Below are positions 22,414 through 35,369 of a stretch of DNA of 35,369 bases, in pieces (positions within the stretch are counted from its first letter, which is position 1; each line of letters opens with the position of its first letter). A program made the translations under genes and the position numbers. Below the pieces are notes generated by a model. It was not told the DNA's origin. It saw only the letters and a list, made by a program, of their open reading frames with translations, and made no database searches. The DNA comes from Verrucomicrobiota bacterium (lineage in GTDB: Bacteria > Verrucomicrobiota > Verrucomicrobiia > Chthoniobacterales > JACTMZ01), in assembly GCA_041177245.1 (NCBI GenBank), contig JBEDBL010000002.1, forward strand, positions 1 to 35,369. Reading direction: 5' to 3'.

Positions 22414-24291
22414 TTACTCGGCTGTGTAACGGAAGCGGAAACGCCCGAGGGGCGCCGCGTCACCTTGGACGTAGAGAAGCGATAAATCGTCCGCCAGTGG
22501 AAGGGCGATGTTGTCGAGCCACTTGAAATCGAAAGTCAGAGGCTCACCGGTCAGGCGCAGCAAGCTTCGCGGAACAGCGATATGCATCTCATTGGCCTCG
22601 ACGCGGAATTTCACGTTACCGGCCTTTAGCCAGCTGTTGACCCCGGTGTTCTTCTCCAGAACCGCTCCCTCCGGAGTCGGCGGGACGCGGTTGAGCACGT
22701 AATCGTAAACATCCCACGTGTGATTCTCGGGATTGCCGGTGCGGATGAGCAGGGTCATCCAGTTCGGATCAGTCGGCGGCGTGATGGGTTTTTCCGTCCG
22801 CACGTAGAAATAAACATTCTCTTCGTCGCGGCAGACCTTGATGAAGAGAAACCCGTTGCGCCCCGTTTTATTCGTGTAGTGCAGGCCTTCCTCACCGCGC
22901 CACGTGGTGCCGTTGCCTTCGAAGTCGGGGTGCGCTCTGGTCACCCTTGTTTTGGACGCGCGCCCGAAACCGTCATGATTACGCGGGGTCGTGTGACCCA
23001 CGATGCCGCGGAAGTCGGGCGCAACATCCTGCCACTGGTCGAATGAACATCCGATGTCGATCGTCTTGGCGGCGGAGGCCTTGGGGATTTCCGGAACGCC
23101 TTTGAAGCGCCGGATGTTGCCCACGGCCTGATAATAGAAGTTGTCGCCGAATCCGCCCTTCATGGGCTCGATGTCGCGGCTGAACTCCTCGTTGAACCCG
23201 TCGCATTGCACCCACGGCGTCTGCATGGAATGGGTGAGCCCCGCGACCCACTCGTTCCAAGCGGTGATCATGACGAATTTCGGGTCGATCTTGAGCGCGT
23301 AATCCCACTGCTCTTGGAAATTGAGGCCGCGCTGGATGGCGCCGATGGACGGATCCTGTTTGCCCTTGCTGAAGCCGCGCCCTCGCGCTTTTCCGGTCCA
23401 CATGAGTTCAAGGGCGCCAGTTTCCCAGTGCATGTTCTGCGCGGGCGAAACATTGACCTGCTCCGGCGCACCCGGGTCATCGGTGAAACCGTAGGCCTGC
23501 GGATGAACTCCGAGCCAATGCCAGGCGTATGGTGTGTTCTTGTAGGGAGGTGTTCCGGGCCAGAAAGCGGTGCGGAGGGTGAAATACCTGCGGACTTCCG
23601 GCATGGCCGCATCCGGGTTGCACAACATGAGCGGCTTGCCTTCCCACCGGAACCACAACTCATCGAAACGGCCCGGACGGTAGAATTTTTCCAGCAACTG
23701 CATGGCTATGTTGCCCATGTCCGTGTTCAGCATGAAACAGACCTGGGGAGTGCGGCCGCCCTCCTTCCTTATCTCCAGCAGCACGGGCAAAAATTGATTG
23801 AGGACATTTTCGTAAATCTCCGCGTTGGTGGCATCGACAACGAGAGTGTCGACCCCGGCCGCGGCAAGAAGGTGCATGTGGCGCCGTATAACCCACGGAT
23901 CGGTAAGTTTGTAGTAGCCGAACAGCGGCTCGCCCCAGAACGCGTAATGCCATTGCTTGGGACCAGAGTGGCGGAAGGTCGGGGTCGTCCGCATGTCGGG
24001 TTGCCCGGCGAGAATCTTGCTCACATCGTAAGGCCCGTAGCTATATTCGTCACCGGTCCAAGGAAGGTAAAAAATACCGACGAAGCGGTCTTTTTTCGGC
24101 AGCCCAACTTCGGCAGCGAGCGGCAACTCGCGCCCTAGCGCATCGGTCGCGGGCCATGGAACTCCGGGGTTTATGGACTCGCGGACCGTTTCGGCGCACC
24201 CCGAGTCAGTCCATGCCGCGAAAAAAGAGAGCAATGCACCCAAGACAGCAAGGAACCGGGAACTCATCGCGCGGATTTTAAGGTAAGGCAT
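22414..24291 (-). CDS. Secreted GH99-like/WbsX-like TIM-barrel protein with a C-terminal beta-sandwich (putative glycoside hydrolase)
   Basis: ATG 24291, or ATG 24267 giving MSSRFLAVLGALLSFFAAWTDSGCA as the signal peptide. FVGIFYLPW..., LLAAAGVDTLVVDATN and FVMITAWNEWVAG (the 'AWNEW' block, shared with the next gene) suggest a GH99/WbsX-type barrel. The C-terminal FDFKWLDN...GDAAPLGRFRFRY tail looks like an accessory beta-sandwich. CDS confidence is high; function confidence is low. Confidence 0.7.
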   Translation of the reverse strand: MPYLKIRAMSSRFLAVLGALLSFFAAWTDSGCAETVRESINPGVPWPATDALGRELPLAAEVGLPKKDRFVGIFYLPWTGDEYSYGPYDVSKILAGQPDMRTTPTFRHSGPKQWHYAFWGEPLFGYYKLTDPWVIRRHMHLLAAAGVDTLVVDATNAEIYENVLNQFLPVLLEIRKEGGRTPQVCFMLNTDMGNIAMQLLEKFYRPGRFDELWFRWEGKPLMLCNPDAAMPEVRRYFTLRTAFWPGTPPYKNTPYAWHWLGVHPQAYGFTDDPGAPEQVNVSPAQNMHWETGALELMWTGKARGRGFSKGKQDPSIGAIQRGLNFQEQWDYALKIDPKFVMITAWNEWVAGLTHSMQTPWVQCDGFNEEFSRDIEPMKGGFGDNFYYQAVGNIRRFKGVPEIPKASAAKTIDIGCSFDQWQDVAPDFRGIVGHTTPRNHDGFGRASKTRVTRAHPDFEGNGTTWRGEEGLHYTNKTGRNGFLFIKVCRDEENVYFYVRTEKPITPPTDPNWMTLLIRTGNPENHTWDVYDYVLNRVPPTPEGAVLEKNTGVNSWLKAGNVKFRVEANEMHIAVPRSLLRLTGEPLTFDFKWLDNIALPLADDLSLLYVQGDAAPLGRFRFRYTAE

Positions 24292-24412: not shown

Positions 24413-25597
24413 TCAGGCCAACGCGGCGGCAAGCTCCGGCTTGGCGCGGTCGCCACCAAAAACACCCGCGATCGCCTCAAGGTAGCCCATACCGTTGGCC
24501 GTATCGGGCTCGATATAGCTGCCTTCCGTCCATTCGTTCCATGCATTGATGCTCATGAGGTTCGGACCAGGACGCCGGCTGAGCCTCTCGCGGTAAATCT
24601 CGAGCGCGCGGCGGAAAGCAGCAGGGGTATTCCCGCCGATGCAATTGGAGAAAGTCGACTCCGGCAGCGGTTCCCAGATGTCGGACTGCAACGTGCGCGG
24701 CGAGTTGTCCCAACCCATGGTGATATTGGGGAAGTATGGGATGTCGTATTCCTCCTCCATGCGATTCCATGTCTGGAGATACTTGGCCAAGACTTCTTCG
24801 AACGGAGTAAAAGGCGTTTTGTCCAGTTCGGCGTGATGAATCCAGACGTAGCTCGTCACGCTGTCGAACCCGAGCGCCGCCACGAGTTGCGGAAGGTCCT
24901 TGATCACCACTTCCCCCGGCAGCACCGGCTTGCCCCAGGCAACCGCGTTGAAATGCAGGTTCGGAAAACCCGCCGCCCGCACCCGCTCGCGGAATTCGTC
25001 GATCGCCTCGCGCGTGGCCTTCACCGAACCGTGGATCTCCACGAACTTAGAAAGGTCGTAGACGGAAAAGTATGGCGAGCCATCGACCGTGAGGTAGGAA
25101 GAATGACTGAAATAGCGGTCGATAATGAGATCAGTGATAAAGCGGAACATGCGCGGCGAGACGAGCCCCGGATAAAGCGATTCCTTGCCGAAGGTTCTCC
25201 CCATCGGGTGGATATTGATCCAGTCGTGGTTGGCCCACATGAGAGAAAAGTCCAACCGGTCGACATTGCGCGCTTTGAGGAAACCCTGTTCCAGACAGCG
25301 CTCGAGGAAAGGTCCGTCCTCGTAGTGATACCAGTCGAAGATGAAGTGATCGATGCCGTGGTCGGCCGCCGCATCGATCTTCTTTTCCATGACGAGCGGA
25401 TCCGACTCGTCCTCGTGTCCCCAGACAGGCACTTTCGGCTGCTCGTGACCCGGGAAGCGAGGGCCGGCGTGCTTGACCAACTGCCACTCGGTCCATCCCG
25501 GTCCGTGCACCTTTTCGTTGCGCGGGTCGACATGGTAGTTGGGGAAATAATAACAACCCACGCGGATATCTTGGGAACGGTCGGCGATGCTCATCAT
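24413..25597 (-). CDS. Glycosyltransferase WbsX / GH99-like domain protein (cytoplasmic)
   Basis: I chose ATG 25597 (MMSIADRSQDIRVGCYYFPNYHVDPRNEKVHGPGWTEWQLV), which is the WbsX-family N-terminal signature (YYFPQ.H....N..WWG.GFTEW). The later block SINAWNEWTEGSYIEPD also fits. The longer track ORF, running up to 25777, overlaps the upstream gene. Confidence 0.8.
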   Translation of the reverse strand: MMSIADRSQDIRVGCYYFPNYHVDPRNEKVHGPGWTEWQLVKHAGPRFPGHEQPKVPVWGHEDESDPLVMEKKIDAAADHGIDHFIFDWYHYEDGPFLERCLEQGFLKARNVDRLDFSLMWANHDWINIHPMGRTFGKESLYPGLVSPRMFRFITDLIIDRYFSHSSYLTVDGSPYFSVYDLSKFVEIHGSVKATREAIDEFRERVRAAGFPNLHFNAVAWGKPVLPGEVVIKDLPQLVAALGFDSVTSYVWIHHAELDKTPFTPFEEVLAKYLQTWNRMEEEYDIPYFPNITMGWDNSPRTLQSDIWEPLPESTFSNCIGGNTPAAFRRALEIYRERLSRRPGPNLMSINAWNEWTEGSYIEPDTANGMGYLEAIAGVFGGDRAKPELAAALA

Positions 25598-25643: not shown

Positions 25644-27668
25644 TCAGGGCGCAGTGCTTCGGACGCGGTAGAAGTCTTTCCCCGAGGCCGGAACACGAAA
25701 CTCGCGCCGGATATAATCCGCCGGCAAGAGGAGACCGCTCTGGTTGGATGCGTTGGATATGGAAAGGCCTGTTGCAACCGTCCAAAAGTTGGTCAACGCG
25801 CTGTTTTTCTGCACCTCGTAAGTGGCACCATCGATGCGTTGGACCCAATTGAACACGGCGTTGGACCCCACCGCTGTCACCGTCATGAGCGCGGGCGTCC
25901 CGAGCGTCGGGTTCCCGTCGAAGGCGTATTCCACATCGTTGACAAAGCCGTCGCTGTCCGGATCGGCGGTGCCATTGGTGTCGAACAGACCCGCATTCGT
26001 GGTCCAGTAATCAGCCCAAGCCGAATAGCCGCCGACCGATGTCACGGTCACGGTGCTGCTGGCGGGAGTGAAGGAACCCTGCACACCGGAGAGGCCGGCG
26101 AAGACAACGCTACGGGTTCCCGTAAATGACCCACTGAAAAGCTGGTAAGTTGAACCGACCACGGGCGCGGGTGAGACCGACGACATGGTGATAGCCGCTG
26201 TGCCGACGTCCGCGGTAAAATTTGATTTCGCCACACGGAGAATTCCCCCATCCACCGAAGTGGCGCCCGTGTAGGAGTTGGAACCCGAAAGGATCAGCGT
26301 GCCATTGCCCGACTTGGTAAGACCAGTAGCTCCATCTATGCTTCCAGAGAAGGTTTCGCTGGCCGAAGCCTTGTTGACCGTCAGAGTTCCCGCCGCGTTG
26401 TAGAACTGGCCTGCGCCGGTCAAACCAGCGATGGTCAGATTATTGCTCGTTTTGTAAAAACCCGTCGCCGAGAAAGACGCTCCCGAGGCAATCTGAACCG
26501 CGCTCGCGCTGGAGATGGCGCCGGCACCGTCCAACCGCAACTGGCCAGCCTCGACCACCGTGGGACCGGTGTAGGTATTCGCACTCCAGAGTGAAGCATT
26601 CCCGGCGTTCGCCTTGGTCAGGGAACCCGCGCCGCTGACGACGTTGGTCATATCCGCGGTGATCACAAGGCTTGCATTGTTGGTGATGCTGCCGCCGATC
26701 GCACATCCCTCGGAAAGCATCAAGGCTCCGGCCGAAACGAGCGTGCCCCCGGCACATGAGTTGGACGAAGCGAGCACCAGAGTCCCCCCGCCCGCCTTGA
26801 GCAAACCGGCTGGCGCGCCGCCCAAAGATACGGAGTTGGTCACGCTCTGGCCGCTGGCGACATCGAAATTATAGCGGGCGACATCGAAGGTGATGAGGCC
26901 GAATGGCGCCACACTCTGCGTGCCGGCCAACTGCCAGACCGCAGCCGTGAAGTTCTCGCCGGCGAGCGCATCGATCTCGAACACGGCCATGTCCACGGTG
27001 CCGTTGCGCACCAACTGCGCGGAATAAACGGTTCCCGTGGATCCGGTGTAAATGCTCACATAATCCGGGGCATACGTTCCGTTCGCTGCAGTGTCGACCG
27101 TAATCCCGACACGGTAGGTGGCGGACATTCCCATAGTGAAGGCAAATGCCTCGCCGAAGTAGCCGTTGCCGTCACCCGACGGCGTGTTGTAGGGCCCCTG
27201 ATTGGCCGCAACCGAGAGCGATCCCTGTCGGTAGATGGTCGATCCGTCCGGACCCAGAAAAGTCGGATAACCACCGAAATTGACGAAGGTGCCAGCACCC
27301 CCGGTGACCGAACTCAACATCACAGGCGCGGAATACAGAGTCGGGTTGCCGGATGCGGAGATACCCAGATCGTTGCCTCCGGAAACACCCTCGCCAACAT
27401 TGCTGGGCGACGCAATGGGTGTGGGCCTGATCTGGTAGTAGCCGGCAGTTCCGTAAACTTCGCTACCGCCGAGATCGAAAGTTTTCGGCGCGGCAGGAGA
27501 CGACCAATTTTGCGGGGCGTACGCCGGGCCAATCCCCTCCTCGACTCCAAGGAACGCAATGCTGGCTGCGTCGACACTAAAGGCCGATCCGGCCAGCAAG
27601 ACAGCTGCAGCGCATGCTGGCAGGCAAGTCCATCGGGAGGAGGTTGATGTCATCTGAAGCGTCTTCAT
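25644..27668 (-). CDS. Surface/secreted protein: conserved N-terminal head domain + autotransporter-associated beta-strand (PATR) repeats + C-terminal DPDSDG (thrombospondin-type-3-like) segment; no PEP-CTERM
   Basis: ATG 27668 gives MKTLQMTSTSSRWTCLPACAAAVLLAGSAFSVDA|ASIAF; the track start 27827 is TTG. PATR units: GGGTLVLASSNSCAGGTLVSAGALML and GNGTLILSGSNSYTGATSVDGGILRV. C-terminus: TADPDSDGFVNDVEYAFDGNP...FYRVRSTAP. Confidence 0.85.
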   Translation of the reverse strand: MKTLQMTSTSSRWTCLPACAAAVLLAGSAFSVDAASIAFLGVEEGIGPAYAPQNWSSPAAPKTFDLGGSEVYGTAGYYQIRPTPIASPSNVGEGVSGGNDLGISASGNPTLYSAPVMLSSVTGGAGTFVNFGGYPTFLGPDGSTIYRQGSLSVAANQGPYNTPSGDGNGYFGEAFAFTMGMSATYRVGITVDTAANGTYAPDYVSIYTGSTGTVYSAQLVRNGTVDMAVFEIDALAGENFTAAVWQLAGTQSVAPFGLITFDVARYNFDVASGQSVTNSVSLGGAPAGLLKAGGGTLVLASSNSCAGGTLVSAGALMLSEGCAIGGSITNNASLVITADMTNVVSGAGSLTKANAGNASLWSANTYTGPTVVEAGQLRLDGAGAISSASAVQIASGASFSATGFYKTSNNLTIAGLTGAGQFYNAAGTLTVNKASASETFSGSIDGATGLTKSGNGTLILSGSNSYTGATSVDGGILRVAKSNFTADVGTAAITMSSVSPAPVVGSTYQLFSGSFTGTRSVVFAGLSGVQGSFTPASSTVTVTSVGGYSAWADYWTTNAGLFDTNGTADPDSDGFVNDVEYAFDGNPTLGTPALMTVTAVGSNAVFNWVQRIDGATYEVQKNSALTNFWTVATGLSISNASNQSGLLLPADYIRREFRVPASGKDFYRVRSTAP
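26232..26591 (-). repeat. ~120-aa PATR 'LW..N.YTG...LDG.G...LQ(V/I)ASGA.FS.TG...SNN.T.AGL.GAG' module, copy 1 of 5 (gene 25644-27668)
   Basis: Encodes LWSANTYTGPTVVEAGQLRLDGAGAISSASAVQIASGASFSATGFYKTSNNLTIAGLTGAGQFYNAAGTLTVNKASASETFSGSIDGATGLTKSGNGTLILSGSNSYTGATSVDGGILRV. Confidence 0.75.
26868..27566 (-). other. Conserved unassigned 'head' domain, copy in gene 25644-27668 (~233 aa)
   Basis: Runs from ASIAFLGVEEG...QNWSSP...VYGTAGYYQIRP...NPTLYSAPVMLSSVTGGAG...GPDGSTIY...GPYNTPSG..GYFGEAFAFTM...GTYAPDYVSIY...AVWQLAGTQS to FGLITFDVARYN. Confidence 0.7.
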
Positions 27669-27754
27669 AGGCTTTGGTCGGTTGGGAGAACGGCGAAGGT
27701 GGCGTGTTTCGACTGGAAAATTATTCCCGGCCCGAGAGTCTGCGTCCCGTCCCG

Positions 27755-27827
27755 GAAATTGCGCACGGGGATAATAGCTCGGTCCGCGCATTTCTGCGAC
27801 TCGAACGCACCCGAGCCAGAAATGCAA
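27755..27827 (-). promoter_or_regulatory. Three-copy GAAATGC-core repeat giving two mutually exclusive hairpins (or a multi-site operator) in the 309-nt leader upstream of gene 25644-27668
   Basis: On the plus strand, GCATTTCTG (27788-27796) is a perfect 9-nt inverted repeat of CAGAAATGC (27817-27825), with a 20-nt spacer. The overlapping GCGCATTTC (27786-27794) also pairs with GAAATTGCGC (27755-27764), leaving a one-base bulge. The middle copy cannot pair with both at once. Confidence 0.4.
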
Positions 27828-27977
27828 TTTATCGAGCGAGGGGGCAGAAAGTGTGATGCCGGCGAAATCACAGTCGGGAGGACATTAGGGATACAATACT
27901 TGAACTCTGCGGAACCGACCTTCAAGACCGCGCCAAAGACTCCCGAAACCGTGCCATGCCCGACGCGACCAAAGGTC

Positions 27978-30900
27978 TTATTTCCCGGGAGCGTGCTCAC
28001 CGGTCGCCTTGCGTCTGGAATGGCGCCAGCGGGCGCCAGCCGCGAGAAGGAGAAGCACAGCGCCCGAAGCAAAGGTACCCGGCTCCGGCACGGGCGCGCC
28101 GGCGCCAGTGTAGGTGAGGAACAAATCATTGTTCGCATCCACGGCCAGACTGAAAAGGCCGGAGGCTCCGACAAAACCACCCGTGCCGTTGTTTGCCGAA
28201 GTGTTGATATTGAACAGGTTCGTATTGAAGGCGCCGGAGATCCCCACAGAGGCGAGGATTTTCCAAGAGTAGTTTTGCGAGGCATCGAAACCCGTCGCAA
28301 CACCCGCCGTGTCGGGGAGGCCCGAGAGCGACCAGAGGTTGATGTTGAATTTGTTGCTCGTGCTCAGCCCGTTGATATCCCAAGTGCCGCCGGTCACGTT
28401 GATCAAATCCCACGTGTTGGTCTGCCCGGCTGTGCCGCTCACGTTGAAGATCTGCCAGTTGTAATTGCCGCCGCCCGACCAAGTGAGCCCGTTGGTGATG
28501 GTCAATGTGCCGGGAGAATTCCCCGGCGCGATCGTGCCGCCGTTTTGAACTGTCACCGATGCCACTGATCCGCTGCCACCGAGGCTGGCACCATTTTGCA
28601 CGGTAGTCGCACTGCTGATCGAGCCGTTGACAACCAAACTACCAGCGCTCACCGCAGTCGCACCGGTATAACTGTTGGCACCGGATAGCGTCCAGGTGCC
28701 CGCACCCGATTTCGTCACTGCCGTTCCTCCGCTGATCACGCCGGAAAACGTGTCGCTGCCCGAAGCCTTGTTGACGGCGAGCGTTCCAGCCGCATTGTAG
28801 ACATTCCCCGCACCACTCAGACCGGCGATTGTCAAATTGTTGCTGGTTTTAAAGAGACCCGTAGCCGAGAACGTAGCGCCAGAGGCGACTTGCAGCGTGC
28901 TGCTGCTGGAGATTTCACCCGCTCCGTCCAGTTGCAACTGGCCCGCCTCGACAACAGTGGCTCCGGTGTAGGTGTTGGGATTCCAAAGTGAAGCGGTGGA
29001 TCCGGTTGCTTTGGTCAATGAACCGCTACCGCTCACGACATTGGTCAAATCCGCGCCAATCCTCAGGCCGGCGTTATTCGTAATGCCGCCAGCGATGAAA
29101 CCGCCACTGCCCAATTCCAGGGTGCCAGCCGAGATGAGCGTGCCTCCGGTATATGAATTGCTCGCCGTGAGCGTGGTCGTGCCAGCGGACAACTTCGTCA
29201 CGCCACCGCTGCCCGAAATGCTGCCGCTATGCGTGTAGGCATCCGAGCGGTCGAAGACCAACTGCGCCGCGTTATCACTCAAAGCGGTGCTGCCCGAATA
29301 AGAACCTGTGGTCCCGCCATTACCGATACGCACCGTGCTGGTCGATACGGTGAGACCGCCTGTGCTGGTCACCGCTCCGGTTAAGCGCGTTTCACCCGAA
29401 CTGGAAACCAAGGCGCCAGCACCGGAGATGGAATTAGCCACCACGTTGGTTCCGCTCACCGCAAACTCAAGGGACCCGGAGCTTGCGTTCGAGATGGTAA
29501 TTGCGCCCGAACCCAGACGCCCATTGCCAGAGACACTGAGACGGCCCCCTTGAATATCGGTGGCGCCGCTGTAGCTATTGCTTGCCGTGAGGATTAGAGA
29601 ACCTGTTCCGGTCTTGGTCAGACCACCCGTGCCAAGACTGATCGCATCGTTCACCCGAATATGACCCGCGCCTTCGGTGCTGAGGTTGAAATTGGCCGAC
29701 TCGATCGCGTTTCCAGAAGCGACATCAAGCGTCAGCAAATTGTTTGCCGCCGCCCCGATCCGCGCATCAGCCGCCAGGGTGACCTTGCCTTGCCAGGTGT
29801 TCGTGCCGCTCGCGCTTCGCAAGGCCCCGCCGCTGCCGCCCACACCGAGTCCGCTGATGGTCAGTGCCTCGTCGCCGATCGTAATTCCGCTGCCGCCACC
29901 ATTGGTTCCCTGAATACGGATGACAGCGCCGTTCGCGACGGTCGTTCCGCTATCTGTGCTGCCAAACCCGTTACCACTCGCGAGGTTCACCACCCCGGCG
30001 TTGACTGTTGTCGCACCGGTGTAGCTGTTGCTGCCCGAAATGGAGAACTGACCGGCACCGCTCTTGGTAAGGCTGAGCCCTCCTTGAATGTTGCCGGTGA
30101 GAAGGTCGGTGCCAGAAGTTTTGTTCACCGTCAAGGTGCCCGCGGCCCCAGTCACCGTGCCCGCTCCGGCTAAGCCAGCCACGGTGACATTGTTGCTGGT
30201 GAGGAACGTTCCAGTCATCGAAAACGTGGCACCTGAGTCGACTTGCAAGGTCGTGCTGCTTGAAAGCGCTCCCGATCCGTCCAGTCTAAGCGCGCCACTG
30301 CTGACGACAGTCGCACCCGTGTAGCTATTGGAGCGCCAAAGAATCGATGTCCCAGTGCCTCCCGAAGTCAGACCTGCCGTTCCGGCCAACTCCGCCACAA
30401 TCTCGGCTGCGTTGCTGAGGACAAAACTTCCGCCCGTTTTCGAAAGCGACGCCGGCGCGCCGGCGCTGGTTGCAAGGTATCCGCCATCGAAGGTCACCGA
30501 GCCGGTGCGCGTCATGTTGGTGCGCACATCAAGGTAAGCTCCGCCGCTCACCGTGACCGCTGCGGACGCATCGCCCAGGGCATTGCTCGAAGTGGTGATG
30601 ACGCGTCCACCGGAGATGGTTGTTTCCCCGCTGTAGCTATTGCTGCCGCTCAAAGTCAGCGTGCCGTTGGCCGATTTGGCCAGCGCCCCATTACCGCTGA
30701 TCGCCCCGGACAAGGTCTGATTGGCCGAGGTGTTCACCCGCAAGGAGGCAGAGTTGGTCGTCAGCGATACCGCGCCGCTGTAGTTGCCGGAGGCCAACTG
30801 CCCGGATCCTCCCACTTCCACCGCACCATTGCTGATTGTTGTGGTCCCCTGATACGTGCTGACACCGGTCAAGGCCATGGTTCCCGCGCCCGTCTTGAGC

Positions 30901-31757
30901 AAACCGGCGGCAGAGCCGCCCAAAACCGACGAGTTCGTCTGCGCGCCCGACGCAACGGCAGCGTTGTAACTCGAAACATCGAAGGTGATGAGACCAAACG
31001 CCGCCGCGCTTTGCGTATTGGCCAGTTGCCACAAAGCCGCGGTGAAAGTGTCGCCGGCCGCAGCGGTCACATCAAAAACAGCCATGTCGGGCGTGCCGTC
31101 ACGCGTCAAAAGACTCGAGTAAACACTGCCCGTGCCCCCGTTGTAGATGGAAACATAATCCGGCGCGTAGGTTCCGCTCGCCACCGTGTCCACAGCCACG
31201 CCGATGCGGAAACTTGCTCCCATGCTCGAGCCCATGGTGAAAGAAAACGCCTCTCCGAAGTATCCGCTGTTGCTTCCCGAAGGTGTGTTGAAAGGCCCTT
31301 GATTGACAGGAACTGAAAGTCCGCCCTGTGTGTAGAGCGCAGATCCGTCGGGTCCTCGGAAGATGGAGTAGCTGTTGAAGTTGACATAGTCGCCTGCTCC
31401 GCCCGTGATTGAACTCAACATAACCGGAGCGGAATAGAGGGTCGGATTGGAACCCGCCGTGATGCCGAGGTTGTTCCCCGCGGCCGCACCCGAATAAATG
31501 GTGGAACCTGGCGGATAGGAGATCGGGCGGATCTGGTAGTAGCCCGCAGTTCCGTAGACGTCGCCGCTCAGATCGTAAGCCTTGGAAACACCGGGATTGG
31601 ACCAATTCTGCGTGGCGTATCCACTGCCTGCCGTTCCCGGTTCCACCCCGACGAACGAAATCGTGACCGCTTCGGCAGTCGAAATCGCTGCCCAGACCGC
31701 GACCAAATGCAAAGTGGAGCGCGCAGCGGCAACCATACTGGATCTTGGGGGGATCAT
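27978..31757 (-). CDS. Giant PEP-CTERM-anchored surface protein: conserved head domain + long PATR beta-strand repeat stalk
   Basis: 1259 aa with an ATG start and the signal peptide MIPPRSSMVAAARSTLHLVAVWAAISTAEA|V. Many G.G.L.LSG.NSY(T/S)G.T.(V/I)..G.L units. The C-terminal GAPVPEPGTFASGAVLLLLAAGARWRHSRRK is a canonical PEP-CTERM sorting signal (about 27981-28093). Confidence 0.9.
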   Translation of the reverse strand: MIPPRSSMVAAARSTLHLVAVWAAISTAEAVTISFVGVEPGTAGSGYATQNWSNPGVSKAYDLSGDVYGTAGYYQIRPISYPPGSTIYSGAAAGNNLGITAGSNPTLYSAPVMLSSITGGAGDYVNFNSYSIFRGPDGSALYTQGGLSVPVNQGPFNTPSGSNSGYFGEAFSFTMGSSMGASFRIGVAVDTVASGTYAPDYVSIYNGGTGSVYSSLLTRDGTPDMAVFDVTAAAGDTFTAALWQLANTQSAAAFGLITFDVSSYNAAVASGAQTNSSVLGGSAAGLLKTGAGTMALTGVSTYQGTTTISNGAVEVGGSGQLASGNYSGAVSLTTNSASLRVNTSANQTLSGAISGNGALAKSANGTLTLSGSNSYSGETTISGGRVITTSSNALGDASAAVTVSGGAYLDVRTNMTRTGSVTFDGGYLATSAGAPASLSKTGGSFVLSNAAEIVAELAGTAGLTSGGTGTSILWRSNSYTGATVVSSGALRLDGSGALSSSTTLQVDSGATFSMTGTFLTSNNVTVAGLAGAGTVTGAAGTLTVNKTSGTDLLTGNIQGGLSLTKSGAGQFSISGSNSYTGATTVNAGVVNLASGNGFGSTDSGTTVANGAVIRIQGTNGGGSGITIGDEALTISGLGVGGSGGALRSASGTNTWQGKVTLAADARIGAAANNLLTLDVASGNAIESANFNLSTEGAGHIRVNDAISLGTGGLTKTGTGSLILTASNSYSGATDIQGGRLSVSGNGRLGSGAITISNASSGSLEFAVSGTNVVANSISGAGALVSSSGETRLTGAVTSTGGLTVSTSTVRIGNGGTTGSYSGSTALSDNAAQLVFDRSDAYTHSGSISGSGGVTKLSAGTTTLTASNSYTGGTLISAGTLELGSGGFIAGGITNNAGLRIGADLTNVVSGSGSLTKATGSTASLWNPNTYTGATVVEAGQLQLDGAGEISSSSTLQVASGATFSATGLFKTSNNLTIAGLSGAGNVYNAAGTLAVNKASGSDTFSGVISGGTAVTKSGAGTWTLSGANSYTGATAVSAGSLVVNGSISSATTVQNGASLGGSGSVASVTVQNGGTIAPGNSPGTLTITNGLTWSGGGNYNWQIFNVSGTAGQTNTWDLINVTGGTWDINGLSTSNKFNINLWSLSGLPDTAGVATGFDASQNYSWKILASVGISGAFNTNLFNINTSANNGTGGFVGASGLFSLAVDANNDLFLTYTGAGAPVPEPGTFASGAVLLLLAAGARWRHSRRKATGEHAPGK
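28623..28988 (-). repeat. PATR module, copy 2 of 5 (distal copy in gene 27978-31757)
   Basis: Encodes LWNPNTYTGATVVEAGQLQLDGAGEISSSSTLQVASGATFSATGLFKTSNNLTIAGLSGAGNVYNAAGTLAVNKASGSDTFSGVISGGTAVTKSGAGTWTLSGANSYTGATAVSAGSLVVNG. By eye this is the copy closest to copy 1. Confidence 0.75.
29982..30341 (-). repeat. PATR module, copy 3 of 5 (proximal copy in gene 27978-31757)
   Basis: Encodes LWRSNSYTGATVVSSGALRLDGSGALSSSTTLQVDSGATFSMTGTFLTSNNVTVAGLAGAGTVTGAAGTLTVNKTSGTDLLTGNIQGGLSLTKSGAGQFSISGSNSYTGATTVNAGVVNL. Confidence 0.75.
30963..31667 (-). other. Conserved unassigned 'head' domain, copy in gene 27978-31757 (~235 aa)
   Basis: VTISFVGVEPG...QNWSNP...VYGTAGYYQIRP...NPTLYSAPVMLSSITGGAG...GPDGSALY...GPFNTPSG..GYFGEAFSFTM...GTYAPDYVSIY...ALWQLANTQS...FGLITFDVSSYN. 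Confidence 0.7.
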
Positions 31758-31783
31758 GGCTTGGGGAAACCTACGCTTTAAGA

Positions 31784-34700
31784 CTACATCGTGCGGCCGG
31801 CCTGGACCTTCGCCAGCGCGCCATAAGTCCGTGATGCAGTGCCAGCCCGGCAGGCGGACAACAGCAGAAGTCCAAGCACTGCCGCGGCGGCGGCTGAAGT
31901 CGATGACTCAGGGATCGCCGTGATGGTGAAGGTGCTCCCGTTGAAGGTGGAACCTCCGAAACCGCCGGCGCCGCTGAAGGTGAAACCCGAGAGGGAAAGG
32001 CTGTTCGTTGTCTGGAAAATCAGGGTGTTCCCCTGGGTGAAATTGGCCAAGTCGAGCACAAGCAGCGCGCTCGGAGTGTAACCGATTCCGCCGAACTCGA
32101 TTGTCCCGGCCGTTCCCCCGCCGAAGTCGAGGAATGAAGACGCTGTGAGATTGAGGTTGCCGAAGACTTCGCTCACACCGCTGGCACGTTGGATCGTCCC
32201 GCCCGAGAGCGTAACGCCCGCGCCGTTGTTCACTTGGTTGCTTTGCGAGATGAGAAGTATCGCGTTTGTCGCCACGGACACCGACGCGGCCGAAGCTGCC
32301 GCGCCACCGACAGAACTGTTGAGATTCAAAACGCCTGCATCGACGGCGACAGCCCCCGTGTAGGTGTTGTTGCCCGTGACCACGAGAGTTCCTGTCCCTT
32401 GCTTCGTGATTCCCCCGCTGCCACCGAGGTTACCGGATTCCGTAGTCGCTGTGCCGGCATCCACCGTGTAAGTCGCGTTGTTGAGCGTCTTGTTCCCGCT
32501 CAGTGTCACCGTTTGGAGTGTGCGAATGTTATAGATACTCATCGCGTTGGCCACCGTGCCCGACGCATTGATCTGTAGTGTCGATGAAGAGTTGCTCTGC
32601 GTGATCATGCCGCTGCCCGCCGCACTCGCGTTGTCCAACCTCAAGAACCCCTCGCCCAGAACCGTTCCGCCGCTGTAGCTGTTGGCAGCGCCTAGGATCA
32701 GCGATCCGGTGCCGAGTTTGGTCAGACCTCCCGCGCCCAAGCTGATCGCATCGTTGACTTGGATATGGCCCGCTCCCTCGGTGGTAAAGTTGAAGTCCGC
32801 CGACTCGACCGCGTTCCCAGACGCGACATCCAATGTCAAAAAGCTGCTGGCCGCAGATCCAATCCGCGCATCGCCGGACAAGGTGACTTTCCCTTGCCAG
32901 GTGTTTGTTCCGGAAACGCTGCGCAAAGCCCCGCCGTTGCCGGCACGGCCTTGGCCGATGATGGTCAAAGCCTCCGCGCCGACGGTGATGCCGCTGCCGC
33001 CATTGTTCGTGCCCTGAATACGCAAGACGGAACCGTTCCCCACAATTGTGCCGGCCGCCGTGCTGCCCAAGCTGCTGGCGTGAACAAGATTAAGAACATT
33101 GTCCGACCCTCCGACCGTGGTGATCCCCGTGTAGTTGTTGCTCCCAGCGAGCCACAATTGGGTGTAGTCGGCCAGAGTGAGTCCGATGCCGCCCTGGATA
33201 CTTCCGGTAAAAACATCCGAACTCGTCGTGGGCTTGCTGACCGTCAGCGTCCCCGCCGCTCCCGTGACTGTGCCCGCGCCAGTCAAACCGGACACCGTGA
33301 CATTATTGCTCGGCGCAAAAAATCCGGTGGTGGAAAATGTAGCACCGGAAGCCACTTGAAGTGCGCTGTTGCTCGAGATCATACCCGCGCCATCCAACCG
33401 CACCACACCGCCCTCCACCACGGTGGCACCGGAGTAGCTGTTGGCCACCCAGATGGAAATAGTGGAACTGCCACTTTTGGTCAGTGAACCGGTTCCGCTC
33501 ACCGCATTGACCAAATCTCCGCGGATAATGAGGCTGGCGTTGTTGGTGATGCCGCCGCTGAGCACTGCACCGTTGAGATCGAGCGCACCCGCCGAGATGA
33601 GCGTTCCGCCCGAGTAGGAGTTCGAGCCCGACAAGACCAGTGTCCCCGCCCCCGCCTTGTTAAGGCGAACGCCCCCGGTGATTTGACCGGAAAACGTGTC
33701 GCTGCCGGAGGCCTTGTCCACGCTGAATGAACCCGCACCCCCGGTCACCGTCCCCGCTCCCGTCAGCCCGGCGACGGTCAAATTGTTGCTGGTGAGGAAA
33801 GTGCCGGTTGACGAGAAGGTCGCGCCTGAAGCGACTTGCAGCGTGGTGTTGGTCGAGAGACCGCCCGAACCGTCCAACCTCAGCGTGCCGCTGTTGACCA
33901 CGGTTGCCCCCGTGTAGCTGTTCGAGCGCCAAAGAATCGCGACGCCCGTGCCACCCGAGGTCAGGCCAGCCGAACCGCCCAACTGTGCGACGATTTCCGC
34001 GGCGTTGGTGAGCACAAAGCTTCCGCCGTTGTTGATCAGCGAAGCCGGTGCGCCGTCGGCAGTCGCCAGATATCCCCCGTCGAAGGTTACCGTCCCAGTG
34101 CGCGTGATGTTCGTGCGCACATCGAGGTAAGCGCCACCGCTGACTGTGACCGCCGAGGATGCGTCACCCAATGCGTTCGCAGAAGTCGCGATGAGGCGCC
34201 CCCCCGAAATGGTCGTGCCCCCGCTGTAGCTGTTACTACCACTCAAAGTCAGTGTGCCATTAACAGATTTGGACAAAGAACCGCTGCCGCTGATCGCGCC
34301 GGACAAAATCTGGTTGGCCGAGGTTGCGATGCGGAGCGAGGCCGTGTTGGTGGCGAGCGATACCGCGCCGGTATAGCTGCCGCCGGCCAACCGGCCCGCG
34401 CCGCCTACCTCGACCGCGCCATTGCTGATCGTCGTGGTGCCTTGATATGTGCTGACACCCGTTAGCACCGTTGTTCCCGCTCCGGTCTTGAGCAGCGCCG
34501 CCGGTGCGCCACCGAGAACCGCAGAATTGGTCTGCAGACCGGAGACGACATCCAAATTGTAACGCGACACATCGAAGGTAATCAGACCAAAAGCCGCGGC
34601 GCTCTGCGTCCCGGCCAACTGCCACAAAGCCGCGCTGAAACTTTCGCCCGCGGACGCAGTGAGGTCGAAGAAAACCATGTCTGGCGTGCCGTCACGCGTC

Positions 34701-35353
34701 AGTTGCGTGGAATAGGTGCTTCCGGTGCCCGAGTTGTAAATGGTGACATAGTCAGGCGCATAGGTGCCGCTGGATACGGTGTCGACCGCGATGCCGATAC
34801 GGAAATTCGCACCCATATTCGACGCCATACTGAAAGAGAAAGCTTCGCCAAAGTATCCGTTGTTGCTGCCCGAGGGCGTGTTGTAAGGACCGTTGTTGAC
34901 CGCGACCGAGAGCGATCCTTCGCGATAGAGCGCAGATCCGTCCGGACCGCGGAAGATCGGATAGCCTGGGAAATTGACATAATCGCCGGCGCCGCCGGTG
35001 ATCGAACTCAAGAACACCGGAGCAGAATACAAGGTCGGGGAATTGGTTGCGGTGATGCCGAGATTATTTCCCGAAGATGCTCCTTGGTAGATGTTGACTG
35101 CGCCGGGGTCCCAAGCCATCGGACGGATCTGGTAGTAACCCGAAGTTCCGTAGACCTCGCTGCCGCCCAAATCGTAGGTTTTGGAAACGCCCAGATTGGA
35201 CCAGTTTTGCACCGCGTAACCGCTTCCCGCCGTGCCGACTTCGACCCCGACAAAAGAAACCGTCGCGGCCTCGGCGGAGGAAAATGCAAGCCAGGCAGCG
35301 GCGATGAGCAAAGAAAATGTTGTCGGGACAGGAGATCCTAATTTTGTGGGCAT
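31784..35353 (-). CDS. Giant surface protein paralogous to 27978-31757: conserved head domain + PATR repeats + variant PEP-CTERM-like tail
   Basis: 1189 aa with an ATG start and the signal peptide MPTKLGSPVPTTFSLLIAAAWLAFSSAEA|A. It is colinear with the neighbouring paralog over the first ~550 aa. The C-terminus AIPESSTSAAAAAVLGLLLLSACRAGTASRTYGALAKVQAGRTM (about 31787-31920) has IPES in place of VPEP and a weak basic cluster. Confidence 0.9.
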   Translation of the reverse strand: MPTKLGSPVPTTFSLLIAAAWLAFSSAEAATVSFVGVEVGTAGSGYAVQNWSNLGVSKTYDLGGSEVYGTSGYYQIRPMAWDPGAVNIYQGASSGNNLGITATNSPTLYSAPVFLSSITGGAGDYVNFPGYPIFRGPDGSALYREGSLSVAVNNGPYNTPSGSNNGYFGEAFSFSMASNMGANFRIGIAVDTVSSGTYAPDYVTIYNSGTGSTYSTQLTRDGTPDMVFFDLTASAGESFSAALWQLAGTQSAAAFGLITFDVSRYNLDVVSGLQTNSAVLGGAPAALLKTGAGTTVLTGVSTYQGTTTISNGAVEVGGAGRLAGGSYTGAVSLATNTASLRIATSANQILSGAISGSGSLSKSVNGTLTLSGSNSYSGGTTISGGRLIATSANALGDASSAVTVSGGAYLDVRTNITRTGTVTFDGGYLATADGAPASLINNGGSFVLTNAAEIVAQLGGSAGLTSGGTGVAILWRSNSYTGATVVNSGTLRLDGSGGLSTNTTLQVASGATFSSTGTFLTSNNLTVAGLTGAGTVTGGAGSFSVDKASGSDTFSGQITGGVRLNKAGAGTLVLSGSNSYSGGTLISAGALDLNGAVLSGGITNNASLIIRGDLVNAVSGTGSLTKSGSSTISIWVANSYSGATVVEGGVVRLDGAGMISSNSALQVASGATFSTTGFFAPSNNVTVSGLTGAGTVTGAAGTLTVSKPTTSSDVFTGSIQGGIGLTLADYTQLWLAGSNNYTGITTVGGSDNVLNLVHASSLGSTAAGTIVGNGSVLRIQGTNNGGSGITVGAEALTIIGQGRAGNGGALRSVSGTNTWQGKVTLSGDARIGSAASSFLTLDVASGNAVESADFNFTTEGAGHIQVNDAISLGAGGLTKLGTGSLILGAANSYSGGTVLGEGFLRLDNASAAGSGMITQSNSSSTLQINASGTVANAMSIYNIRTLQTVTLSGNKTLNNATYTVDAGTATTESGNLGGSGGITKQGTGTLVVTGNNTYTGAVAVDAGVLNLNSSVGGAAASAASVSVATNAILLISQSNQVNNGAGVTLSGGTIQRASGVSEVFGNLNLTASSFLDFGGGTAGTIEFGGIGYTPSALLVLDLANFTQGNTLIFQTTNSLSLSGFTFSGAGGFGGSTFNGSTFTITAIPESSTSAAAAAVLGLLLLSACRAGTASRTYGALAKVQAGRTM
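33108..33454 (-). repeat. PATR module, copy 4 of 5 (distal copy in gene 31784-35353)
   Basis: Encodes IWVANSYSGATVVEGGVVRLDGAGMISSNSALQVASGATFSTTGFFAPSNNVTVSGLTGAGTVTGAAGTLTVSKPTTSSDVFTGSIQGGIGLTLADYTQLWLAGSNNYTGITTVGG. Confidence 0.7.
33571..33934 (-). repeat. PATR module, copy 5 of 5 (proximal copy in gene 31784-35353)
   Basis: Encodes LWRSNSYTGATVVNSGTLRLDGSGGLSTNTTLQVASGATFSSTGTFLTSNNLTVAGLTGAGTVTGGAGSFSVDKASGSDTFSGQITGGVRLNKAGAGTLVLSGSNSYSGGTLISAGALDLNG. Confidence 0.75.
34556..35266 (-). other. Conserved unassigned 'head' domain, copy in gene 31784-35353 (~237 aa)
   Basis: ATVSFVGVEVG...QNWSNL...VYGTSGYYQIRP...SPTLYSAPVFLSSITGGAG...GPDGSALY...GPYNTPSG..GYFGEAFSFSM...GTYAPDYVTIY...ALWQLAGTQS...FGLITFDVSRYN. 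Confidence 0.7.
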
Positions 35354-35369
35354 GGATGGGGATAATTAC

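What the first reader, a model, noticed from the sequence alone, without database searches (positions are those of the whole stretch)
25644..35353. Tandem trio of paralogous giant surface proteins with one shared head and three different C-terminal fates
Three consecutive co-oriented genes (35353-31784, 31757-27978, 27668-25644) encode signal peptide + the same ~235-aa N-terminal domain + PATR beta-strand-repeat stalks of different length. Their C-termini differ. One has a canonical PEP-CTERM (VPEPGTF...RWRHSRRK). One has a variant tail (IPESSTS...LLLLSACRAG plus about 20 extra residues). One has no anchor motif at all and instead carries a DPDSDG calcium-binding-like segment and a terminal beta-rich domain. 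The first two genes are only 26 nt apart. The layout looks like one binding head displayed on stalks of different length, in anchored and possibly released forms, inside a glycan-degradation neighbourhood that has no SusC/SusD-type genes. My hypothesis is that these proteins capture substrate or mediate adhesion. That is inference only.
Basis: partly seen in the sequence, partly recalled or inferred. Interest (0 to 1): 0.72.

Follow-up and report, generated by a model that had tools for sequence, protein, structure and literature searches.

The report
Stalked sugar-binding-like surface proteins of Verrucomicrobia
Three neighbouring genes encode secreted proteins that carry the same unnamed beta-sandwich head on rod-like stalks, and because this head always sits beside one conserved set of sugar-degrading genes, and is even fused to one of those enzymes, it is probably how these bacteria grab a particular polysaccharide.

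Summary
Three co-oriented genes (A 35353-31784, B 31757-27978, C 27668-25644) each encode a signal peptide, a shared ~240-aa head (66-77% identical) and PATR beta-helix repeats (7, 8 and 3), with different C-termini.

The head matches no Pfam, NCBIfam, PHROGs or PDB entry. It is a small family whose usual form is a ~280-aa protein: signal peptide, head, then PEP-CTERM.

- **Synteny.** In 12 of 12 informative Verrucomicrobiota loci, head genes lie just upstream of the window's catabolic cluster (WbsX-like, GH99-like, GH116, rhamnosidase-like, MFS, GH43/32-like). In 7 of 8 Planctomycetota loci they lie next to a WbsX+LamG protein.
- **Enzyme fusion.** A head-superfamily domain forms the N-terminus of the cluster's GH43/32-like enzyme.
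- **Fold.** The predicted fold is a jelly-roll that only weakly resembles CBM35/CBM6.
- **C-termini.** There are two sorting classes, not three fates. B has a PEP-CTERM that scores below the HMM cut-offs. A has a decayed PEP-CTERM. C has a recurrent TSP3-like loop plus an Ig-like terminal domain.
- **Phages.** Uncultivated phages also encode head+PEP-CTERM proteins.

Best reading: CBM-like glycan-capture proteins of a locus without SusC/D genes. Binding, surface exposure and the substrate are untested.

The parts
31784..35353 (-). Gene A (1189 aa): signal peptide, head, about 874-aa PATR stalk, decayed PEP-CTERM tail
   Evidence: ORF. PATR x7. Orthologues are 87% identical in L027 and 83% in L001.
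34538..35266 (-). Head domain of A (residues 30-272), an all-beta jelly-roll-like fold
   Evidence: No Pfam hit. AF2 pLDDT 88.8, pTM 0.89. Foldseek top hits are CBM35/CBM6/CBM4/PA14, but TM normalised to the query is 0.31 or less.
31787..31915 (-). A tail IPESSTS...LLLLSACRAG plus extension: a degenerate PEP-CTERM
   Evidence: Pro-to-Ser change and loss of about 29 nt encoding the RRR cluster relative to the L027 and L001 orthologues. No PF07589 hit, whereas the orthologue tails score 23.4 and 19.2 bits.
27978..31757 (-). Gene B (1259 aa): signal peptide, head, about 949-aa PATR stalk, PEP-CTERM-type tail
   Evidence: ORF. PATR x8. The N-terminal 580 aa are 76% identical to A, and the C-terminal 915 aa are 80% identical to the L027 B-like gene.
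30942..31670 (-). Head domain of B
   Evidence: 77% identical to the A head. Head HMM 399 bits.
27981..28091 (-). B tail VPEPGTFASGAVLLLLAAGARWRHSRRK plus 9 residues: PEP motif, hydrophobic helix, basic cluster
   Evidence: Aligns to the whole PEP-CTERM models but below their cut-offs.
25644..27668 (-). Gene C (674 aa): signal peptide, head, about 273-aa PATR stalk, TSP3-like loop plus Ig-like C-terminal domain
   Evidence: ORF. PATR x3. Head HMM 387 bits.
26850..27566 (-). Head domain of C
   Evidence: 66% identical to the A head.
25647..26030 (-). C-terminal module of C (128 aa): helix, DPDSDG loop, helix, then an Ig-like beta-sandwich ending FYRVRSTAP
   Evidence: 95 homologues; in every aligned homologue (53) the module ends at the extreme C-terminus, behind varied N-terminal domains. 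AF2 pLDDT 94.2. Only generic Ig/FN3/CBM21 fold hits. Related to the short '...FFRLR' domain of head paralogues elsewhere: hhalign probability 82%, E 1e-5.
24413..25597 (-). WbsX-like (PF14307) gene, the conserved neighbour of head genes
   Evidence: Pfam 1.5e-51. 80-90% identical orthologues sit directly downstream of head genes in 12 loci.
22414..24291 (-). GH99-like TIM-barrel protein with a signal peptide; part of the conserved cluster
   Evidence: Weak PF16317 hit. 71-82% identical orthologues lie in synteny.
19803..22400 (+). Bac_rhamnosid6H-like six-hairpin glycosidase (true start probably downstream of 19803)
   Evidence: Pfam. 68-73% identical orthologues lie in synteny.
18388..19911 (-). 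MFS_2 sugar transporter of the cluster
   Evidence: Pfam 2.1e-65. Synteny.
16817..18472 (-). GH43/32-like five-bladed-propeller enzyme of the cluster
   Evidence: Pfam. Synteny.
17711..18211 (-). N-terminal domain (residues about 88-254) of the GH43/32-like enzyme: a distant member of the head superfamily
   Evidence: HMM of remote head relatives (A6) scores 42.8 bits, colinear over model positions 60-237. Against 2,683 background ORFs, the HMM of this domain hits, below its own orthologues and E = 1, 28 head-family ORFs and only one unrelated ORF. P0285 is a head-like domain (69.6 bits) fused to the same catalytic domain, 51% identical. Direct hhalign is weak: E 0.0036, probability 9%.
10527..13802 (-). 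GH116 enzyme of the conserved cluster
   Evidence: Pfam. 68-78% identical orthologues.

Best explanation
A, B and C are Sec-exported envelope proteins. Their N-terminal head is a non-catalytic, CBM-like glycan-recognition module dedicated to the substrate of the adjacent catabolic gene cluster. That cluster comprises WbsX-like, GH99-like, GH116, rhamnosidase-like and GH43/32-like enzymes, a sulfatase and MFS importers.

Proposed mechanism:
1. The signal peptide directs export.
2. The head folds as a beta jelly-roll.
3. The PATR repeats form a beta-helix rod. From autotransporter passenger geometry I estimate roughly 15-20 nm for A and B and about 5 nm for C.
4. B is handed to an exosortase through its PEP-CTERM tail and ends up cell-associated. 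A has a decayed signal, so its fate is uncertain. C uses a different, recurrent C-terminal Ig-like module, preceded by a TSP3-like calcium-type loop, to reach another location or attachment.
5. The heads hold the polysaccharide near the secreted enzymes, and MFS transporters import the products.

The system would act as a functional analogue of the surface glycan-binding proteins of Bacteroidota loci, without SusC/SusD.

Shown here: the domain architecture, the paralogy, the conserved synteny and the fusion to a glycoside hydrolase. Predicted: the fold. Inferred: glycan binding, surface location, sorting and rod length.
For: - Architecture and paralogy.
- The head is unnamed and forms a small family: 423 clusters at 90% identity, and 294 representatives at 50% identity with E <= 1e-3, of which 49 have E <= 1e-30. 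Of the 120 best hits, 114 are 259-310 aa, that is signal peptide, head and PEP-CTERM.
- Synteny: head gene(s) lie 0-3 genes upstream of WbsX-like, followed by GH99-like and the rest of the cluster. The enzymes are 59-91% identical to the window's. This holds in L003-L008, L010, L015, L018, L019, L026 and L027.
- An AraC-type regulator lies directly upstream of the array in L026 and L027. Rhamnose genes (RhaA, rhaM) lie upstream in L027.
- In Planctomycetota, 7 of 8 informative loci have a divergently oriented WbsX+Laminin_G_3 protein next to the head gene.
- Fusion to an enzyme: P0285 and the window's own GH43/32-like enzyme carry a head-superfamily N-terminal domain.
- Other family members pair the head with dockerin, cadherin, LamG, PA14, Ig-like or LRR modules.
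- Fold: a confident all-beta model. The best PDB matches are CBM35/CBM6/CBM4/CBM51/PA14, with Foldseek probability up to 1.0 and TM normalised to the target up to 0.50.
- Many invariant aromatic and arginine residues (W22, Y39, Y44, Y102, W215, R48, R156, R191) would suit a binding site for an anionic glycan. This point is inference.
Against: - No binding or localisation data exist.
- No Foldseek hit reaches E <= 1e-3, and TM normalised to the query is 0.31 or less. The CBM resemblance therefore covers only a jelly-roll core.
- About 60% identity across two phyla is unusually high for a CBM. It could instead point to an enzyme or a protein-protein interface.
- PEP-CTERM proteins are classically linked to exopolysaccharide and floc formation (PMC1569441; titles listed), not to nutrient capture.
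- B's tail is below the HMM cut-offs and A's is decayed. No exosortase gene could be looked for.
- Phage-encoded copies have no obvious place in a nutrient-capture role.
- The enzymes of the cluster are themselves uncharacterised, so the substrate is unknown.
Confidence: 0.55

Rival explanations
1. A, B and C are adhesins or matrix proteins of the PEP-CTERM/exopolysaccharide system. They would mediate cell-cell or cell-particle attachment (floc, biofilm or sheath), and their position next to CAZymes would reflect remodelling of the cell's own exopolysaccharide rather than nutrition.
For: PEP-CTERM proteins are tied to exopolysaccharide loci and floc formation (PMC1569441; PMC9850573 and PMC9012009 by title and abstract). 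PATR rods are typical of adhesins, and the partial NCBIfam matches are to ShdA-type adhesin passengers. In L026, Wzz and Poly_export genes lie a few kb upstream. Partner domains elsewhere include cadherin and LRR.
Against: The conserved neighbours are catabolic: two MFS importers, a sulfatase, GH116, a GH43/32-like enzyme, isomerase-like, FAA-hydrolase and glycerate-kinase genes. A head-type domain is built into a glycoside hydrolase. The Wzz/Poly_export neighbours are not conserved across loci.
Confidence: 0.17
2. The head is itself an enzyme, for example a new jelly-roll lyase, hydrolase or esterase. It would act on the same glycan and be displayed on the cell surface.
For: Conservation is very high (57-77% among the 120 best hits, which span two phyla), with many invariant charged residues (K29, R48, R156, D162, R191, D232). 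Jelly-roll folds do host enzymes such as GH16 and PL7 (my own knowledge). The head is the invariant first gene of the cluster.
Against: No catalytic jelly-roll family appears among the top Foldseek hits, which are nearly all binding modules. There is no sequence match to any Pfam or PDB enzyme. The domain sits as an N-terminal accessory to a complete catalytic propeller, which is the classic position of a binding module.
Confidence: 0.12
3. The head is mainly a phage-host interface. The cell-surface copies would be phage receptors or decoys, and the phage copies would serve superinfection exclusion or host-surface remodelling. Under this reading the CAZyme linkage is secondary.
For: Head+PEP-CTERM genes that retain their signal peptides occur in at least 6 distinct uncultivated viral contigs with 28-34% GC. 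One of them carries a terminase and a virion structural protein. In the NJ tree the phage heads nest within the Verrucomicrobiota heads, next to the Verrucomicrobiaceae, Akkermansiaceae and Luteolibacter short forms.
Against: The cellular copies are embedded in a strictly conserved catabolic operon context in two phyla. A host-derived auxiliary gene in phages explains the viral copies equally well. There are no hits in cultured-phage genomes or in PHROGs.
Confidence: 0.06

Closest known systems
PEP-CTERM proteins with 'autotransporter-associated beta strand repeats' (TIGR02601 / PF12951 plus TIGR02595), first described from Verrucomicrobium spinosum (Haft et al. 2006, PMC1569441)
   Same: Signal peptide, PATR beta-helix repeats, no beta-barrel translocator, and a C-terminal PEP motif followed by a helix and a basic cluster (B, and the orthologues of A). 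Several copies per genome.
   Different: These proteins carry a defined, conserved and unnamed N-terminal head that is tied to one catabolic gene cluster. One paralogue uses a different C-terminal module, and one has a decayed signal.
Surface glycan-binding proteins (SGBPs, SusD/E/F-like) of Bacteroidota polysaccharide utilisation loci
   Same: Genes encoded at the head of a substrate-specific CAZyme/transporter cluster. Non-catalytic beta-sandwich modules held at the cell surface. Often several paralogues per locus.
   Different: No SusC/SusD pair and no lipoprotein anchor. Import is by MFS transporters, and anchoring would be by exosortase or the CTD. There is no sequence or close fold relationship. 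Binding has not been shown.
CBM6 / CBM35 / CBM4 jelly-roll carbohydrate-binding modules
   Same: A beta jelly-roll core, and these are the best PDB fold matches. A related domain is appended to a glycoside hydrolase.
   Different: The head is about 100 residues larger. TM normalised to the query is 0.31 or less and identity 15% or less. There is no HMM match, and the calcium and ligand sites have not been identified.
NCBIfam 'choice-of-anchor' domains (my own knowledge of Haft's families)
   Same: One extracellular domain is found with alternative C-terminal sorting signals in different paralogues.
   Different: No choice-of-anchor model matches A, B or C. The alternative here is an about 70-130-aa Ig-like domain, not a short tripartite signal.
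T9SS C-terminal domains (Por_Secre_tail) of Bacteroidota
   Same: The C tail is an about 80-aa Ig-like beta-sandwich at the extreme C-terminus of otherwise unrelated secreted proteins.
   Different: There is no sequence hit and no T9SS CTD among the fold hits listed. T9SS has not been described in Verrucomicrobiota (my own knowledge). A sorting role for this tail is purely hypothetical.

Membership tests
PEP-CTERM / exosortase substrates (TIGR02595, PF07589; Haft 2006, PMC1569441) | N-terminal signal peptide | tested here: met
   By inspection of the translations: a basic n-region, a hydrophobic core, and AEA|A, AEA|V or VDA|A sites. No predictor was run.
PEP-CTERM / exosortase substrates (TIGR02595, PF07589; Haft 2006, PMC1569441) | Near-invariant Pro-Glu-Pro motif at the C-terminus | tested here: inconclusive
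   B has VPEP. A has IPES, where the orthologues have IPEP. C has none.
PEP-CTERM / exosortase substrates (TIGR02595, PF07589; Haft 2006, PMC1569441) | Hydrophobic helix followed by a basic cluster at the very end | tested here: inconclusive
   B: helix, then RWRHSRRK, then 9 extra residues. A: helix, but the Arg cluster is deleted and about 20 residues are added. C: absent.
PEP-CTERM / exosortase substrates (TIGR02595, PF07589; Haft 2006, PMC1569441) | HMM score above the curated cut-off | tested here: not met
   B: TIGR02595 9.2 against 16, PF07589 12.3-13.3 against 20.7. A and C: no hit. Orthologue tails score 19.2-23.4 bits and short homologues pass. Haft 2006 notes that PF07589 misses the V. 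spinosum set.
PEP-CTERM / exosortase substrates (TIGR02595, PF07589; Haft 2006, PMC1569441) | Exosortase (EpsH/Xrt) gene in the same genome | not testable with these tools
   None was found among the window ORFs scanned. The rest of the genome is not available, and the contig could not be extended.
Type Va autotransporter | C-terminal beta-barrel translocator domain | tested here: not met
   Pfam finds only PATR in all three proteins. NCBIfam autotransporter equivalogs (ShdA, EprS, fusolisin) match only repeat stretches, at 28-77 bits against cut-offs of 999-2249.
Type Va autotransporter | Passenger-type beta-helix repeats (PATR) | tested here: met
   PF12951 at 1.4e-36, 1.9e-42 and 4.2e-26.
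Carbohydrate-binding module (CAZy sense) | A discrete non-catalytic fold contiguous with a carbohydrate-active enzyme | tested here: met
   This holds for the superfamily, not for A, B and C themselves. P0285 is a head-like domain plus a GH43/32-like domain, and the window enzyme 16817-18472 has a head-superfamily N-terminal domain.
Carbohydrate-binding module (CAZy sense) | Structural membership of a known CBM family | tested here: not met
   The best matches are CBM35/CBM6/CBM4, but E >= 1e-3, TM normalised to the query is 0.31 or less and TM normalised to the target 0.50 or less. There is no Pfam CBM hit.
Carbohydrate-binding module (CAZy sense) | Demonstrated carbohydrate binding | not testable with these tools
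   This needs recombinant protein and glycan arrays or ITC.
SusC/SusD-type polysaccharide utilisation locus | Adjacent SusC (TonB-dependent transporter) and SusD genes | tested here: not met
   No such Pfam hits among the window ORFs of 200 aa or more that were scanned.
Bacterial TSP3 / dockerin-type calcium-binding repeat (PF18884, PF00404) | HMM match of the DPDSDG segment of C | tested here: inconclusive
   C's tail has no Pfam hit even at E <= 10. Distant homologues of the same module hit PF18884. The AF2 model shows helix-loop-helix around the motif.

The most novel reading that the evidence does not exclude
The head defines a new carbohydrate-binding family that is the substrate-capture component of a glycan-utilisation system specific to the Planctomycetota-Verrucomicrobiota group and independent of SusC/D. 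Paralogues would be routed to the envelope by two alternative C-terminal signals: exosortase/PEP-CTERM, and a previously undescribed Ig-like C-terminal sorting domain ending F[FY]R[LV]. Phages have captured the module and express it through the host's sorting machinery.
Probability: 0.3. Interest if true: 0.75.

Novelty: new variant of a known kind. Interest (0 to 1): 0.58.

Why it matters
How Verrucomicrobiota and Planctomycetota seize polysaccharides without SusC/D machinery is an open question. So is what the abundant PEP-CTERM proteins of environmental bacteria actually do.

This locus offers a concrete, testable candidate. It is a small, highly conserved and unnamed domain, locked in synteny with one uncharacterised enzyme set (WbsX-like, GH99-like and others) across two phyla and fused to one of those enzymes.

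If the head binds the cluster's substrate, three things would follow:
- it would define a new CBM family;
- it would assign a physiological role to a class of PEP-CTERM proteins;
- it would give a handle for identifying the unknown glycan, possibly a rhamnose-containing or sulfated one.

The recurrent pairing of a PEP-CTERM paralogue with a CTD paralogue, and the phage-borne copies, are further leads.

Tried and rejected
- **Naming the head.** Pfam at E <= 10 on the isolated head, NCBIfam at E <= 0.01 on the full-length proteins, PHROGs, and the PDB by sequence profile all gave nothing.
- **Fold searches.** Foldseek against the PDB and BFVD returned only weak, generic jelly-roll, CBM and tail-fibre hits.
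- **C-terminal module of C.** Foldseek gave only generic Ig, FN3 and CBM21 hits.
- **WbsX-like protein.** No solved relative and no NCBIfam name for it or for most other cluster enzymes.
- **Literature.** Searches for WbsX, PF14307, and PEP-CTERM combined with Verrucomicrobia or polysaccharide utilisation found nothing relevant.
- **Other scans.** Rfam found nothing in the window. The promoter/terminator scan of the B-C gap was not informative.
- **Extending the contig upstream of A.** This failed.
- **Frameshift as the cause of A's odd tail.** Rejected. The alignment with the orthologues shows a point substitution plus a deletion, with the reading frame kept.
- **Recent duplication or assembly artefact as the origin of the trio.** Rejected. 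DNA identity is 60-75%, and A and B have orthologues at 80-87% in other loci.
- **Autotransporter membership.** Rejected, because there is no barrel domain.
- **Direct profile-profile link between the head and the GH N-terminal domain.** Weak on its own (hhalign E 0.0036, probability 9%). I accepted the link only with the bridging evidence.

Full report
**1. Observation**

Three co-oriented ORFs lie on the minus strand: A 35353-31784 (1189 aa), B 31757-27978 (1259 aa) and C 27668-25644 (674 aa from the ATG). The gaps are 26 nt between A and B, 309 nt between B and C, and 46 nt between C and the next gene.

Pfam and NCBIfam recognise only PATR / TIGR02601 repeats, with 7, 8 and 3 scoring copies. 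The matches to the autotransporter equivalogs ShdA, EprS and fusolisin cover only repeat stretches and score far below their cut-offs. There is no barrel domain, so these are not autotransporters.

The three proteins align colinearly through a signal peptide and a head of about 240 aa. B's head is 77% identical to A's, and C's is 66% identical. They also share an about 170-aa stalk module that occupies different positions in the three proteins. At DNA level the paralogues are 60-75% identical. They are therefore old paralogues, not an assembly artefact or a recent duplication.

**2. The C-termini**

*B.* The tail VPEPGTFASGAVLLLLAAGARWRHSRRK has the three-part PEP-CTERM layout defined by Haft et al. 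(PMC1569441). It nevertheless scores below the curated cut-offs: TIGR02595 9.2 against 16, and PF07589 12.3-13.3 against 20.7.

*A.* The tail gives no hit at all. Its orthologues are 87% identical in L027 and 83% in L001. They end IPEPST...RRR and score 23.4 and 19.2 bits. The DNA alignment shows three changes in the window copy: a Pro-to-Ser substitution in the PEP motif, loss of about 29 nt encoding the arginine cluster, and read-through for about 20 codons. The reading frame is kept. A's 'variant tail' is thus a decayed PEP-CTERM, not a third designed fate.

*C.* The last 128 residues form a recurrent module. A profile search found 95 proteins. In every aligned homologue the module ends within a few residues of the C-terminus, and the N-terminal parts vary (cadherin, He_PIG, MBG, TSP3_bac). 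Where the sources name an organism, it is Verrucomicrobiota or Chthoniobacterales.

AlphaFold2 models this module confidently (pLDDT 94.2) as helix, DPDSDG loop, helix, then an Ig-like sandwich. Foldseek finds only generic Ig, FN3 and CBM21 folds.

The module is related to the about 65-aa '...FFRLR' terminal domain on short head paralogues in other genomes (hhalign probability 82%, E 1e-5). It is also related to the terminal domain of the Methylacidiphilales head proteins.

**3. The head**

The head has no hit in Pfam even at E <= 10, none in NCBIfam and none in the PDB by sequence profile. A phage copy has no hit in PHROGs.

Homologues number 423 clusters at 90% identity. At 50% identity there are 294 representatives with E <= 1e-3, of which 49 have E <= 1e-30. 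It is a small, tight family.

Of the best 120 hits, 114 are 259-310 aa long. They consist of a signal peptide, the head, and an IPEPS...RRRR PEP-CTERM tail directly after '...TFDV'. The usual form therefore has no stalk.

Longer members combine the head with PATR, cadherin, Ig-like, dockerin, LRR, LamG or PA14 modules. The more distant ~250-aa relatives are also PEP-CTERM proteins: 27 of 35 pass PF07589, and none has any other Pfam domain.

AlphaFold2 gives an all-beta model (pLDDT 88.8, pTM 0.89). The best PDB matches are CBM35, CBM6, CBM4, CBM51 and PA14 jelly-rolls. None reaches E <= 1e-3, and the TM-scores are low: 0.22-0.31 normalised to the query and at most 0.50 normalised to the target. 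The viral structure library gives weak tail-fibre and CBM-like hits. The fold is lectin/CBM-like, but no membership is established.

**4. Genomic context**

The window carries a catabolic neighbourhood:
- WbsX-like
- GH99-like
- Bac_rhamnosid6H-like
- an MFS_2 transporter
- GH43/32-like
- glycerate kinase and a 2-hydroxyacid dehydrogenase
- a prepilin-type N-methyl protein
- GH116
- DUF6786
- a second MFS transporter
- a sulfatase with a beta-helix domain
- an arabinose/fucose-isomerase-like protein
- an FAA-hydrolase-family protein

No SusC/D-type gene is present among the ORFs scanned.

A scan of one genome per species found 24 loci. All are MAGs of Verrucomicrobiota or Planctomycetota. In all 12 informative Verrucomicrobiota loci (L003-L008, L010, L015, L018, L019, L026, L027), the head gene or genes lie 0-3 genes upstream of a WbsX-like gene. 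GH99-like and other members of the same cluster follow, with proteins 59-91% identical to the window's.

An AraC-type regulator precedes the array in L026 and L027. RhaA and rhaM lie upstream in L027.

In 7 of 8 informative Planctomycetota loci, the head gene is next to a divergently oriented 670-840-aa WbsX+Laminin_G_3 protein.

**5. Arrays and paralogue classes**

Tandem head genes recur:
- Four in L001 and four in L027. L027 reads C-like, B-like, A-like, then a short PEP-CTERM form. L001 reads B-like, A-like, a short CTD form, then a short PEP-CTERM form.
- Two in L003, L004, L005, L010, L015 and L018.

In seven of these loci, a head+CTD paralogue is paired with a head+PEP-CTERM paralogue. 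The heads fused to PATR stalks form one clade in a neighbour-joining tree, with A-, B- and C-type lineages. A and B have clear orthologues elsewhere. C's combination of head, short stalk and CTD was not seen as such in the other loci.

Both the window and an independent Logan contig end 16 nt upstream of A. The array may therefore continue upstream.

**6. Link to an enzyme**

P0285 is a head-like domain (69.6 bits against the head HMM) fused to a GH43/32-like catalytic domain that is 51% identical to the window enzyme 16817-18472.

The window enzyme's own N-terminal domain (residues about 88-254) scores 42.8 bits against the HMM of remote head relatives, colinear over 178 model positions. An HMM of that N-terminal domain was searched against 2,683 background ORFs. 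Below its own orthologues and E = 1, it hit 28 head-family ORFs and only one unrelated ORF. The direct profile-profile comparison is weak, so the link rests on this bridging evidence.

A head-type module as an N-terminal accessory of a glycoside hydrolase in the same cluster is the classic position of a carbohydrate-binding module.

**7. Phages**

Head+PEP-CTERM proteins that keep their signal peptides occur in six IMG/VR contigs and in two further metagenome contigs. One of the latter (L029) is the same contig as the IMG/VR locus L036. Most of these contigs have 28-34% GC. L029 carries a large terminase subunit and a virion structural protein.

In the tree these heads nest within the Verrucomicrobiota heads, next to the Verrucomicrobiaceae, Akkermansiaceae and Luteolibacter short forms. 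No cultured-phage genome carries one. The retained export and sorting signals suggest a host-derived gene expressed in the host envelope rather than a virion part. This is inference.

**8. Interpretation**

The best-supported reading (confidence about 0.55) is that the head is a CBM-like recognition module for the unknown glycan processed by the WbsX/GH99-like cluster. In this lineage it is displayed on PATR rods and delivered to the envelope by exosortase (B), by a decayed signal (A) or by the Ig-like terminal module (C).

The rivals are an exopolysaccharide-associated adhesin or matrix role (0.17), a catalytic head (0.12) and a primarily phage-related role (0.06).

Shown: architecture, paralogy, synteny and the enzyme fusion. 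Predicted: the folds. Inferred: binding, location, sorting and rod length.

**9. Novelty**

PATR plus PEP-CTERM proteins are commonplace in Verrucomicrobiota, where they were first found (PMC1569441). The new elements are:
- the unnamed head family;
- its strict linkage to one catabolic cluster in two phyla;
- its occurrence inside a glycoside hydrolase;
- the recurrent PEP-CTERM/CTD pairing;
- its carriage by phages.

Searches of the held literature found no description of any of this. I rate it a new variant of a known kind, with interest 0.58.

Noticed in passing
L029 10001-10834 (the same contig as L036); L030 5419-6249; L031, L032, L034: Uncultivated phage contigs with 28-34% GC encode about 277-aa head+PEP-CTERM proteins that keep their signal peptides. 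L029 has a large terminase subunit and a virion structural protein. In L030 the head gene is flanked by two PATR proteins with overlapping start and stop codons.
   Followed up: partly
window 4706-25597 compared with L005, L006, L010, L015, L018, L026, L027: The cluster genes found in each locus are 59-91% identical at protein level in MAGs labelled Methylacidiphilales, Verrucomicrobiaceae, Akkermansiaceae and Luteolibacter (for example 2-hydroxyacid dehydrogenase 91%, WbsX-like 80-90%). This is unusually high for such distant lineages and suggests a horizontally shared island.
   Followed up: partly
window 17711-18211 (-), inside gene 16817-18472: The GH43/32-like enzyme has an N-terminal domain that belongs to the head superfamily. 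It is a fourth head-type domain in the window.
   Followed up: yes
window 13762-14511 (-): A prepilin-type N-methylation-motif protein, with a weak match to Verru_Chthon cassette protein D, is conserved in the cluster (43-58% identity). In L007 and L008 it lies between the head gene and the WbsX-like gene. Its role is unknown.
   Followed up: no
window 35354-35369 and L025 1-16: Both the window and an independent Logan contig end 16 nt upstream of gene A. The related arrays in L001 and L027 have four head genes, and L027 has an AraC-type regulator upstream, so the array here may be cut short.
   Followed up: partly
window 27978-31757 compared with 31784-35353: B looks mosaic. Its first 580 aa or so are 76% identical to A, while its C-terminal 915 aa are 80% identical to the B-like gene of L027. 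This suggests recombination between the paralogues.
   Followed up: partly
L010 15409-16767 (-): Another protein in a related locus, with no head domain detected, ends with the same class of C-terminal domain (…FLRLKATLTP). This fits a general C-terminal module used by several secreted proteins.
   Followed up: no
window 8510-9763 (-), 9800-10441 (-), 22414-24291 (-), 24413-25597 (-): Several conserved cluster genes have no NCBIfam name and no solved relative: DUF6786, a 213-aa ORF with no Pfam or NCBIfam match, the GH99-like protein and the WbsX-like protein. The enzymology and substrate of the cluster are essentially unknown.
   Followed up: partly
L018 7174-9660: A Methylacidiphilaceae protein carries two head domains in tandem, followed by cadherin and Ig-like domains and the terminal CTD. 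The head can therefore be multimerised within one chain.
   Followed up: no
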